DNA of 64,000 bases, taken from contig CM097885.1 of assembly GCA_044892525.1 (NCBI GenBank), forward strand, positions 6,574,001-6,638,000. Reading direction: 5' to 3'. Of the stretch, positions 19,298-24,000 are shown piece after piece. Numbering within the stretch: the stretch's first letter is position 1; every line of letters begins with the position of its first letter. The notes below the pieces were generated by a model. It made no database searches. It was not told the origin of the DNA and worked only from the letters and a program-made list of their open reading frames with translations. Source of the DNA: Schmidtea polychroa. Taxonomy: Eukaryota. Made by a program: the position numbers and the translations under genes.

Positions 19298-20598
19298 ATG
19301 GCTAACAATAATAAAAATGGAATTCTAAGAAATCTTTTGACGACAATGGGTAATTTATTTTATTTTATTATATTTTATTTTATTATTATTTTAGAACCAT
19401 TCGATTGGTACGATGTAACGGAAGATGACTCGATATTAACAGTGGATAAGATCTTCGGTAAATTTATTATTATAATTTTTAATAAATTATTTTTTTTTTC
19501 AATTCAGAAAATGCTTCAAATAGCGACGATGATGTCGTCTTTATCGGGGAAAGTAATGCTCCTAATAAGATCTTTGGTAAATTTATTATTATTTTTTTAT
19601 TAAATTATTTTTTTTTCAATTCAGAAAATGTTTACAATAGCGACGATGATGTCGTCTTTATTGGGCAAACTGATGCCCCTAATTATGCCCCTAATTATGC
19701 CCCAGTTCTCAAAGAAAAAAGTAAATTTTATTATTATTTCTATTAAATTAATTTTCATTTCAGAAAATGTTTTAAATGTTGATATTGACGAAGAAGAAAT
19801 TAATGTCCTCGCATCGGATGATGGTGAAATCTGTGAGAATGATGGGCAAATCTCATCGGATGATGATCAAATCTCAGAGAATGATGGGCAAATCTCATCG
19901 GATGATGATCAAATCTCAGAGAATGATGGGCAAATCTCTGAGAATGATTCCGACATGGAATCAAAATGTAAGAAATATTTATTTTTATATATATATTTTG
20001 TTTTTTATTTATATGTTAAATTTGTAATAACTTATTTAAATATTTTGATAAAAAACTTTTTTAAATATTTTAATAAAAATTATGATGAAACTTCTGAAGA
20101 AAATGATTTTATGATTTATAATGAAAATATACCGAAAAATTATGAAGAAAAATGATTATATGTTTTATAAAGAAAATGATGAAAATGATGAATTTATGAT
20201 GAAGAAAATGATGAAAATAGGATGAAAATCAATTATGATGAAAATATGACGAAAATTATGATGAAAATGATTTACAACCAAAATTATGATGAAAATGATT
20301 TATGATGATATAATGAAAATGAATTATGATGAAGATATGACGAAAATTATGATGAAAATGATTTATGATGATATAATGAAACTTCTGAAGAAAACTATTT
20401 TATGATGAAAATTATTTATACCGAAAATTATGAATTTATGATGAAAATGATTTATGACCAAAATTATGATGAAAATGATTATACTAAGTTTCTGAAAGTT
20501 ATTATTATCAAAATATTTAAAAAGTGATTACAAATTATGGTTATAAATCCTTGTAGTTTGCAATGTGCATCTACAATAGTTAAAATAATAATAATAAT

Positions 20599-20635
<37 letters not shown>

Positions 20636-20998
20636 TAGTCTACAGTGAGCATGTAGCTACATAGTAGTCTGCAGTGAGCATGCAGCTACTTTTCTTTTAT
20701 ATAATAATAATAATATATAAATAATAATTAGACCCCGTCTACAGTAGTTTGCAGTAAGCATGCAGCTACATAGTAGTCTGCAGTGAGCATGCAGCTACTT
20801 TTCTTTTATATAATAATAATAATAATAATAATATAAATAATAATAATAATAATATAAATAATAATAATAATAATATATAAATAATAATATAAATAATAAT
20901 AATAATATATAAATAATAATCAGACCCTGTCTACAGTAGTTTGCAGTAAGCATGCAGCTACATAGTAGTCTGCAGTGAGCATGCAGCTACTTTTCTTT

Positions 20999-21034
<36 letters not shown>

Positions 21035-24000
21035 TATAAATAATAATCAGACCCCGTCTACTAAAATCTCTCTAATATTCTATCGAATATATTAACCTAT
21101 TTTCTATAATGATTTATCATCATTTGTTATTTAATTCAAATGAACTATATAACAAATGATGATAAATCCTTGTAGAAGTAACAATTAGTTTTCTATATAG
21201 AAAAAAAAACAATAAAATTTTAATTTTATTATTTAACAGGTATACTATACCCGAACTATTGTCAAACATCAATTGGACATAGTGATAAATGTCATAGAAC
21301 AATGACAAAATATTACCGAAAAAAGTTTAATTCGGTCAACTTTTTTATATGCCCCAAATGTGTAACGAGCGAAAAAATAAAATATAGGGAATTTTTTAAT
21401 AAACATCATAGTCACTTAGGGCAATTTTCGATATCAAAAAATGTTTTATTTAAAAAAATAAATAAAAAATTAAATAAAAAAAAAAAATTAGAAAATAATT
21501 TACAAAAAAACTTACAAAAAAATTTAGAAAATAATTTACAAAAAATTTGCAAAAAAATATTAAAAAAAATAAAAAAAATATTATTAAAGATTCAAATATT
21601 AAAAAAGATGCTATTAAAAAAGATACTATAAATATTATTAAAAAAGATATTATAAATATTAAAAAAGATTCGATTAAAAGACCTGCTGGTTTAATTAAAA
21701 ATTGCATTCCTAATAAATTATCGCGACCTGAAGTGATAGTCATCAGCAAAGATGAATGTGTAGCTTCAACATCGTTTACACACCAAGCACCTATTACACA
21801 ACACGCACCCATTACACAACAAGAAGTGATAGTCATCAATGATGAATGTGTAGCTTCAACGTCTTTGAACATATGCCAAATAGGCGGCTCTTTGTTTGAA
21901 CCTATGGTAGAATCCGATTTGAACGGATCGCGTAAAACTTTAAGATTTGATATTAGAAATCAAAACTTAGTAAAAATAGCCCTAACATCAAAAATTGAAG
22001 ATAGATTAATACAGGAAATAGAAAAGATGGGCAATGTAAAAATTCAATTCACAATTTTAATTAAATTTGAAAAAGATGGGGAGATCCGGGATAATTATTT
22101 TTCCAACAATGCTCAAGTTTTTACATCAAACTTTATAAACGAGGGGGTGAGCAAATTAAATGAAAAGATTGAGCAATTCACCTATTTAGGAAGCGGGTGG
22201 CGAGTAATGAATATTTTAGAAATAGATTTTATTTTAACGAAATACGCACCCGTCAGTAGATTATCCGGACATAGCTATATAAAAACCCCATCAGCATTAA
22301 AATTAAAACATGCAATAATTAATGTAAAAAACAACGACCATAAGTGCTTCTTGTATAGCATTCTTGCACTTTTAAAAAGAGAAGAAATAGGTCGTAATCA
22401 CCAAAGAGCCGCCAAATATATAGAATTTTTACCTCTATTAAATTATGACGAAGACACTGATTGCCCGATGAGGCTATGCAACATTCCCAAATTTGAAAGA
22501 AAAAATAGAGATTTAAACTTGAGCATAAACGTTCTGTCTTATAATCCAGCCAGTTCTGATTTAGATATTTCTGAGGATTATGTAGCTCACCACCCTCATC
22601 TTAATATAGTACATCGCTCCAAGGTTATAGACGGTAGACCAATTTATTTATTACTTTTGAGTAATAAAGATAAATATCATTATACAGCCGTGACAGACTT
22701 GGACAAATTAATGAATTGTCATGAAAATGAAAATGTAAATGTTCAAATAAGGTGTAACTGGTGCCCACATTGTTTAAATGGCTTTAGATATAAGAATGCT
22801 TTCGATCAGCATGTTGCTCTATGCTGTAAAAATCAGACTGGCACAACTTTGTATACACTTCCTAAAAATAAAGATTTATTATTCACAGATTACGCGAAAA
22901 CAGTTACACCTCCCTTCGTAATTTATGCCGATTTTGAATCGGTTTTACCAGAACATGAAACATATCATCAAATACATTTACCCATATCAGCAGGTCTTTT
23001 ATTAATTAATAATTATACACACACTAAATTTTATTATTATTTTTTTGGACCTAATTGTATTTTGGATTTTTTGAGGAAAGTGGAGGAAATTGCTGTCACA
23101 ATTGTCCTGCCATATTATGATCTTGAAGGTCGTAAAGGTATGTCTACTTTGTCTTTTGCTCAGGAGCGTGCCTTTCGATCTTCCACTATTTGTTATTTGT
23201 GTAAAAAATCTATTATTAATCCTGTGAGAGATCATTGCCATTTTACAGGTAGATATGTCGGAGCGGCATGTAGGAAATGCAATGTCTCTCACAGGATTAA
23301 TAAATTGTTACCTGTTGTCTTTCATAATTTACGAGGCTATGACCTCCACCATATTTTAAAACATGGTCTCAGTGATTTTCCCCTTTGGGAACTTAATATT
23401 ATACCTACCTCTACAGAAAAATTTATATCTTTAATTGCATATATTAACAAATTGCCTGTTCGTTTTATTGACAGCATGCAATTTGTTAATTGTTCTTTAG
23501 CAAAAGCTGTGAAAACCTTAACTACTTTTCCTTTGACTTCGTCTGTCTTTCAAGGGTCGATGATTCACTCTAAAGGTATCTTTCCATATAATTTCGCCAC
23601 TTCTTTAGATGTTCTTGAATCGACTTTAGAATTACCTCCTATTTGGTCTGATGTTACGGAAGATCAGTACGCTGAGGCTCAACTAATTTGGAGTCAGCAT
23701 AACTGTAATAATTTGTTAGATTATATGTTAATCTACCTAAAATTGGACGTATACCTCCTCGCAGATTATTTTCAGCAATTCCGCGGTAAGGCAATTGCTT
23801 ACAATGGTCTGGATCCTCTTAATTTCTACGGGATTCCCGGTATGTCATGGGCCTCAGCGCTTATGACATTAACGGAACCAATAGAACTTCTGCAGGACAT
23901 GGAAATGTATAATTTCTATGAGGGAGGTATCCGGGGTGGGTTAACATTTGTTAACAAACATTACACGGCTACTTCAGATGATACAGAATTATTGTACATT

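What the first reader, a model, noticed from the sequence alone, without database searches (positions are those of the whole stretch)
19298..21900. pPolB extended by five small phase-1 exons carrying repeated SUMO-interacting-like motifs
Exons 19298-19967 splice through four 43-50 bp introns and one 1272-bp intron (all phase 1, internal exons multiples of 3) into an exon starting at 21240. That exon is in frame with ORF 21302 and includes Cys/His residues and a CPKC. The product contains SDDDVVFIG twice (duplicated exons 3 and 4) and an acidic SSDDDQISENDGQI repeat. Further on, RPEVIVISKDE and QEVIVINDE occur. These fit the SIM consensus (V/I-x-V/I-V/I next to acidic residues, as in Daxx or RNF4). 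Inference: the polymerase or terminal-protein precursor is targeted to SUMO-rich nuclear bodies or counters SUMO-dependent silencing.
Basis: partly seen in the sequence, partly recalled or inferred. Interest (0 to 1): 0.7.

Follow-up and report, generated by a model that had tools for sequence, protein, structure and literature searches.

The report
Spliced SUMO-motif leader on Maverick polymerase
The DNA polymerase gene of a virus-like Maverick element most likely starts with five small spliced exons, several grown by duplication and each encoding an acidic stretch with a SUMO-binding-like motif, but these motifs are not shared with most relatives, binding is untested, and this copy has a reading-frame break before the polymerase.

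Summary
The exon layout is real: five exons (52, 63, 69, 96, 204 nt), introns of 45/50/48/43/1272 nt, all phase 1, in a complete 18.2-kb Maverick/Polinton. Only the exon 5-6 junction supplies the first cysteine of a Cys/His module that begins pPolB in relatives. Phase-1 micro-exons also precede pPolB in 4 of 8 close loci, and this scan noted such leaders before in four other stretches of this genome, so that part is not new to the scan. The leader holds 3 strict SIM-pattern matches (0.15 expected; 2 independent, P about 0.01), amplified with duplicated intron-exon units, with the core better kept than its flanks. The SSDDDQISENDGQI repeat is no SIM, the two downstream motifs fit only the loose pattern, and relatives carry SIM patterns at chance level (2 of 65; 2 of 82), bar one lineage. 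Verdict: splicing likely (about 0.85); a family-specific multi-SIM SUMO-docking leader is plausible (about 0.4). No RNA or binding evidence. New variant of a known kind.

The parts
8812..27021 (.). Complete Maverick/Polinton element that carries the gene
   Evidence: AGTAG ends and 6-bp target duplication GGTCAA; long terminal inverted repeats; integrase, ATPase and adenain-type protease hits
19128..19230 (+). Predicted promoter: two CCAAT boxes (19135, 19188) and a TATA-like word
   Evidence: no CCAAT in intron 5; similar CCAAT plus TATA words precede pPolB in L004 and L011; function inferred
19298..19349 (+). Exon 1 (ATG, 52 nt, ends in phase 1)
19395..19457 (+). Exon 2 (63 nt), acidic, loose SIM-like core only
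19508..19576 (+). Exon 3 (69 nt) with strict SIMr match DDDVVFI
19625..19720 (+). Exon 4 (96 nt), duplicate of exon 3 with its intron; same SIMr match
19764..19967 (+). Exon 5 (204 nt): diverged copy of the same intron-exon unit with SIMr match EEEINVL, acidic repeat without SIM core, and a late Met (19955) four residues before the junction Cys
19968..21239 (+). Long phase-1 intron 5 (1272 nt), repeat-filled; no stop-free cassette exon found
21240..21631 (+). Exon 6 start / ORF 21302 frame: Cys/His (predicted two-zinc) module, then a Lys-rich stretch; frame ends at a stop
21535..21631 (+). Overlap of the two frames, in which the frame break lies (62% A, six A-runs of 6 or more)
21715..21890 (+). 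Predicted disordered linker with two duplicated EVIVI motifs, ending in a QxGG word
   Evidence: pLDDT about 30 for model residues 1-61
21535..25296 (+). pPolB frame: terminal-protein domain, vOTU domain, polymerase

Best explanation
The five upstream exons most likely form the spliced 5' end of this Maverick's protein-primed polymerase gene and add a family-specific acidic leader whose exon-duplicated SIM-like motifs would bind SUMO chains by avidity and dock the polymerase precursor at SUMO-rich nuclear sites. Shown in the sequence: exon and intron geometry, duplication of intron-exon units, three strict SIM-pattern matches, the junction-made Cys, the frame break. Shown by homology or models: the order Cys/His module - linker - terminal protein - vOTU - polymerase, continuous in relatives. 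Inferred: one transcript from the promoter before exon 1; removal of the five introns by the host spliceosome; growth of the leader in front of an older start (Met 19955, which sits where relatives start); symmetric phase-1 exons letting motif modules be added without losing frame; SUMO binding; possible release of the N-terminal part at the QxGG word by the element's protease; the frame break being a lesion of this copy or an assembly error in A-runs, not a control device.
For: Splicing: intron rule 5 acceptors against 0.19 expected; of the five upstream exon ends only exon 5 gives Cys with exon 6, and P0128 has Cys at the same C-x6-C spacing (E 6e-12, 24 of 62 identical); exon 6 has no in-frame Met before 21302, so the first half of the module needs an upstream exon; 4 of 8 close loci with upstream DNA have short AT-rich phase-1 introns in the pPolB 5' part, 12 of 12 annotated introns phase 1, with duplicated micro-exons in L005. 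SIM-likeness: 3 strict matches in 161 aa, shuffle mean 0.15, P 0.00015; without the duplicate exon 4, 2 in 129 aa, P 0.011; 1 match in 3,727 aa of the element's other 14 frames; patterns from PMC3395311. Exon 3 against exon 4: 0 of 9 amino-acid changes in the motif, 5 of 10 in the flanks, Fisher P 0.02. Exon 5 keeps the pattern with different letters. A separate lineage (P0004, P0008, P0166) has 2-4 tandem PEVI-E/D-I motifs in the same linker position as the window's EVIVI pair. Clustered weak SIMs bind SUMO chains by avidity in RNF4 (PMC3901395, abstract start and passages); SUMO scaffolds take part in piRNA-guided transposon silencing in Drosophila (PMC8490990, passages).
Against: SIM patterns are not a clade feature: strict in 2 of 65 N-terminal pieces (1.6 expected), loose in 9 of 65 (5.5 expected), and 0 of the 8 close loci including the 4 with micro-exons (many of the 65 are fragments that lack the linker); in 82 of 111 pPolB homologues with a 40-450 aa N-terminal part, strict 2 (2.5 expected), loose 10 (10.3 expected). 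The two DDDVVFI and the two EVIVI motifs are duplicates, so independent events are few. The motif boundary for the exon 3/4 test was set after seeing it, and the loose pattern is my own. The exon chains in relatives were picked among candidate splice sites for an open frame. In 10 of 14 database proteins with a full first Cys/His half, and in 6 of 6 loci that have it, Met lies within 7 residues of the first Cys, so the leader is dispensable for the clade. This copy has a frame break, with no bridging intron that spares the module and no stable RNA structure after the A-runs.
Confidence: 0.45

Rival explanations
1. The exons are spliced and translated, but the leader is a neutral or generically acidic appendage (DNA or histone mimic, activation-domain-like, solubility tag) grown by tandem duplication; the SIM matches are incidental.
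For: Relatives have micro-exon leaders of unrelated sequence without SIM patterns (0 of 8 loci); clade-wide counts at chance; leader is 24% Asp/Glu; the longest repeat has no hydrophobic core; acidic regions with a few hydrophobic residues also typify activation domains (own knowledge).
Against: Shuffles keep the composition and still give P 0.011 for two independent strict matches; motif core better kept than flanks; pattern kept in the diverged exon 5.
Confidence: 0.35
2. Translation of the polymerase starts at the late Met of exon 5 (19955); exons 1-4 are untranslated or regulatory, or belong to a minor isoform or a separate short product.
For: Met 19955 lies four residues before the junction Cys, as the start Met does in most relatives; ATG 19298 has T at -3 where several element genes have A; a short out-of-frame ATG lies in exon 1.
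Against: All four internal exons are multiples of 3 and stop-free in one frame with ATG 19298; exon-type GC; amino-acid-preserving change in the duplicated motif; promoter-like words only before exon 1.
Confidence: 0.12
3. The frame break is programmed: ribosomes slip on the A-runs, giving mostly a short SIM-plus-zinc-module protein and a little full-length polymerase.
For: The two frames overlap for 97 nt in A-rich sequence with six runs of 6 or more A; the rest of the element looks intact and recent (perfect target duplication, 100% TIR arms).
Against: The module and the polymerase lie in one frame in 14 database proteins (three clusters) and 4 loci; folding energy downstream is no better than shuffled; A-run length errors are a common assembly fault (own knowledge).
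Confidence: 0.05

Closest known systems
Polinton/Maverick (adintovirus-type) pPolB with TP and vOTU domains (Krupovic et al. 2024, PMC11071308; abstract, passages and section 6 read)
   Same: Terminal-protein domain with little-finger/PAD-like fold (Z 8.0, rmsd 2.4, 91 aligned, 4ir1_F) followed by an OTU-like domain (Z 6.5, rmsd 3.2, 103 aligned, 3by4_A) with invariant Cys and His.
   Different: Extra spliced N-terminal part: acidic micro-exon leader with SIM-like motifs and a Cys/His module; neither SUMO nor such a leader appears in the passages read (0 hits for SUMO).
Multi-SIM SUMO-chain readers such as RNF4 (PMC3901395; abstract start and passages read)
   Same: Several short hydrophobic cores next to acidic residues, clustered in a low-complexity N-terminal region.
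   Different: No RING domain found; the partner domains are a terminal protein, a deubiquitylase-like protease and a polymerase; binding not shown; motifs not conserved across the clade.
SUMO use by herpesvirus replication proteins, e.g. HCMV UL44 at ND10 (PMC8923073, PMC3499415; search listing and abstract starts only)
   Same: A viral replication protein linked to SUMO-rich nuclear sites.
   Different: There the protein is itself SUMO-modified in vertebrate PML bodies; here the motifs would read SUMO, on a protein-primed polymerase, in a host not shown to have PML.
Micro-exon leaders of other Maverick families in this genome (earlier scan notes e1-7879951, -963, -902, -957)
   Same: Short phase-1 host-type introns at the 5' end of pPolB; a junction that makes a zinc-ligand Cys.

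Membership tests
Maverick/Polinton | Long TIRs, AG-rich ends, 6-bp target duplication (criteria recalled) | tested here: met
Maverick/Polinton | Protein-primed family B polymerase | tested here: met
   111 homologues, the best at 44-55% identity, several with PF03175; no direct Pfam polymerase hit for the window protein
Maverick/Polinton | rve integrase, packaging ATPase, adenain-type protease | tested here: met
   PF00665 E 1.3e-5 (below curated cut-off) with weak chromodomain; PF04665 E 3.5e-7; PF00770 E 4.8e-6
Maverick/Polinton | [quoted passage not shown] | tested here: inconclusive
   ORFs 17106-18389 and 15741-16811 fit by size and place; no Pfam match; not folded
Polinton pPolB (TP-vOTU-Exo-Palm) | TP domain with LF/PAD-like fold, then vOTU with catalytic Cys and His | tested here: met
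   C271 and H382 invariant in 15 of 15 rows; Z values are middling but match the published assignment
Intact pPolB gene | One open frame from the N-terminal module to the polymerase | tested here: not met
   frame break in 21535-21631; continuous in relatives
SUMO-interacting motif | Hydrophobic core with acidic flank matching SIMa, SIMb or SIMr | tested here: met
   three SIMr matches in exons 3, 4, 5; the two linker motifs match only the loose core
SUMO-interacting motif | Lies in an unstructured region | tested here: inconclusive
   linker pLDDT about 30, but with little alignment cover there; leader judged by composition only
SUMO-interacting motif | Conserved in relatives | tested here: not met
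   chance-level counts in 65 and 82 N-terminal pieces; one lineage with tandem loose motifs; same-family sister copies were not available
SUMO-interacting motif | Core-dependent non-covalent binding to SUMO | not testable with these tools
SUMO-targeted ubiquitin ligase (RNF4/Slx5-8 type) | RING domain coupled to the SIM array | tested here: inconclusive
   no RING family among the Pfam matches of 32 module sequences; no clear fold match; ligand spacing unlike C3HC4 (recalled pattern)

The most novel reading that the evidence does not exclude
This Maverick family has built, one micro-exon at a time, a SUMO-chain reader on the same polyprotein as its vOTU deubiquitylase and terminal protein: a SUMO-targeted counter-enzyme that protects the element's linear genome from SUMO- and ubiquitin-based silencing or removal, with the phase-1 micro-exon leader serving across the clade as a fast-evolving slot for host-interaction motifs.
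Probability: 0.15. Interest if true: 0.8.

Novelty: new variant of a known kind. Interest (0 to 1): 0.45.

Why it matters
How Mavericks replicate in the nucleus and avoid host silencing is open. A SUMO-reading leader on the terminal-protein/polymerase precursor would be a first concrete, peptide-testable link between these elements and the SUMO system (no paper found in two searches). Apart from SUMO, the result shows that ORF-only annotation cuts off the true N-terminus of these polymerases and hides a conserved, well-folding Cys/His module with no library match.

Tried and rejected
No whole genome is held, so sister copies could not be compared. Viral contigs gave no relative in two scans. 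Word-based protein searches with exon 6 and exon 5 against longer proteins found nothing (weak evidence). The Cys/His module (model pLDDT 89.9, built on relative P0183) had no clear match in Pfam (best families on at most 3 of 32 members), PDB sequences, PDB or BFVD folds (best Z 2.2; no E below 0.001) or the Atlas (best 0.80, unnamed); this does not prove a new fold, and zinc binding is inferred from residue pattern only. A bridging intron across the break: all 19 frame-compatible GT-AG pairs use donors inside the conserved module. Hidden cassette exons in intron 5: none. Acidic repeat as SIM: rejected, no core. PML-type nuclear bodies: PML is a vertebrate protein (own knowledge) and the host is not shown to be one. 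A complex prediction was not sent: no SUMO sequence was on hand and a stand-in would pass by likeness. Literature: no paper held adintovirus+SUMO or Polinton+SUMO+SIM; listings for Maverick/Polinton with intron or splicing terms showed no title or abstract start on spliced pPolB leaders; most subscription papers are not searched, and supplements were not read.

Full report
Setting. The region lies in a complete Maverick/Polinton, 8812-27021, with AGTAG ends, a 6-bp target duplication and long inverted repeats with 100% complementary arms. Pfam supports an ATPase, an rve integrase with weak chromodomain, an adenain-type protease and a TBP-like gene. The long frame 21535-25296 is pPolB: 111 homologues, the best at 44-55% identity over the part searched. 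A model of 21715-22764 gives an unfolded first 61 residues, then a little-finger/PAD-like domain (Z 8.0, rmsd 2.4, 91 aligned) and an OTU-like domain (Z 6.5, rmsd 3.2, 103 aligned), with Cys271 and His382 invariant in 15 of 15 rows. This is the TP-vOTU order described in PMC11071308 (abstract, passages and section 6 read). The host is not identified; it is AT-rich with intron-like GT-AG gaps of about 45-65 nt in a flanking gene. An earlier scan note calls it flatworm-like; I did not test that.

The observation. Exons have GC 0.29-0.40, the short introns 0.04-0.12. A fixed intron rule finds 5 acceptors here against 0.19 (maximum 3) in 500 shuffles. Introns 2-4 with the following exon starts are copies of one unit. 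Two CCAAT boxes and a TATA-like word precede exon 1, and intron 5 has no CCAAT; CCAAT is not rarer than chance in the window as a whole, so this is supporting only.

Why exon 5 joins exon 6. Exon 6 encodes a Cys/His module that begins pPolB in relatives: 50 hits among 50%-cluster representatives, and E 6e-12 to the N-terminus of full-length P0128. The module starts C-x6-C in P0128. In the window the genomic frame has no Cys and no Met there; of the five upstream exon ends only exon 5 gives Cys with exon 6. In 10 of 14 database proteins with a full first half and in the 6 loci that have the module, Met lies within 7 residues of that Cys, and exon 5 ends with a Met four residues before it. I infer that this Met marks the older start and that the 160-residue acidic leader was added in front in this family.

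Micro-exons are a clade trait. Of 80 loci fetched, 8 close ones had upstream DNA and were read. Four (L004, L005, L009, L011) have short AT-rich GT-AG introns in the pPolB 5' part, 12 of 12 in phase 1, and L005 has duplicated micro-exons; the chains were chosen among candidate sites for an open frame. The other four run module and TP in one frame. Eight of 42 database pieces end just after the module in a Gly plus hydrophobic tail, as read-through into a phase-1 intron would give (inference). This scan noted such leaders before in four other stretches of the same genome; those notes are leads, not support.

The exon 6 frame stops at 21629-21631, and the polymerase, with both EVIVI motifs, is in another frame; the two overlap for 97 nt of 62% A. 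The module and the polymerase share one frame in 14 database proteins from three clusters and in 4 loci. All 19 frame-compatible bridging introns would cut the module, and the sequence after the A-runs folds no better than shuffled. The break is most likely a lesion of this copy or an assembly error. It could not be checked against reads or sister copies.

The SIM claim. With the SIMa, SIMb and SIMr patterns quoted in PMC3395311 (passages), the leader has three SIMr matches, in exons 3, 4 and 5; 20,000 shuffles give a mean of 0.15 (P 0.00015), and without the duplicate exon 4, two matches (P 0.011). The element's other 14 frames have one match in 3,727 residues. Between exons 3 and 4 the nine-residue motif has no amino-acid change and one silent change, the flanks 5 changes in 10 (P 0.02, boundary set afterwards). 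The two linker motifs have the V/I-x-V/I-V/I core but fail the strict patterns, and the long acidic repeat has no core. Against the claim: strict matches in 2 of 65 relatives' N-terminal pieces (1.6 expected), loose in 9 of 65 (5.5), none in the 8 close loci (many pieces lack the linker); 2 and 10 of 82 longer N-termini (2.5 and 10.3 expected; 29 of 111 left out by length). One lineage (P0004, P0008, P0166) has 2-4 tandem PEVI-E/D-I motifs at the linker position, and single look-alikes occur in P0193 and P0209. So SUMO reading, if real, is a recent, repeated, family-level gain, not a general Maverick feature.

Most likely working. One transcript from the promoter before exon 1 is spliced by the host (inferred, about 0.85). 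An intact copy would give leader - Cys/His module - basic stretch - linker - QxGG - TP - vOTU - polymerase. The clustered weak motifs would bind SUMO chains by avidity, as in RNF4 (PMC3901395), and dock the precursor on SUMO-marked chromatin, where SUMO scaffolds help silence transposons in Drosophila (PMC8490990) (inferred, about 0.4-0.45). QxGG words also occur in two other element proteins; by analogy with adenovirus protease sites (recalled) the N-terminal part may be cut off, in which case the motifs act on the precursor or as a free fragment and not on the mature polymerase. The main rival is a generic acidic appendage with incidental matches (0.35).

Novelty. The element and its polymerase are known kinds. 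I found no paper linking Polintons or adintoviruses to SUMO or SIMs and no listing on spliced pPolB leaders, within a library that lacks most subscription papers. The micro-exon leader is already known to this scan; the exon-amplified SIM-like array and the unmatched Cys/His module are the additions. Verdict: new variant of a known kind, interest 0.45.

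Noticed in passing
window 21240-21439; P0165-P0214; L001-L003, L006, L009, L011: Conserved Cys/His (predicted two-zinc) module at the start of this pPolB clade, sometimes repeated; folds with pLDDT 89.9 and has no clear Pfam, PDB or BFVD match.
   Followed up: yes
window 15113-15184: The integrase frame holds a 72-nt in-frame GT-AG stretch made almost wholly of ATT repeats, likely an intron.
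   Followed up: partly
window 20637-20989 and 25517-25612: A 23-nt GC-rich motif occurs 9 times: six in intron 5 and three just after the polymerase stop, nowhere else in the window.
   Followed up: partly
window 9560-10397 and 25871-26657: The terminal inverted repeats extend into a gene, so the right end carries a 5'-truncated copy of ORF 9971-10477.
   Followed up: no
window 12951-13235 (-) and 10565-10888 (+): The element encodes a TBP-like protein (PF00352, E 1.7e-11) and a weak Bcl-2-like protein; both cargo types were noted before by this scan.
   Followed up: partly
window 14124-14663, 16804-17169, 21877-21890; L005:242-423: QxGG or QxGxG words recur in two element proteins, at the linker/TP boundary and in the duplicated micro-exons of L005; candidate protease sites.
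   Followed up: partly
window 28229-32073: Decayed fragments of other Maverick polymerases on both strands beside the element.
   Followed up: no
window 32083-34823 and 36979-38564: A broken non-LTR reverse-transcriptase element and a transposase-like ORF (by appearance of the translations, not scanned).
   Followed up: no
window 39000-57000: Intron-containing coiled-coil-like gene with near-identical 1.39-kb tandem exon blocks.
   Followed up: no
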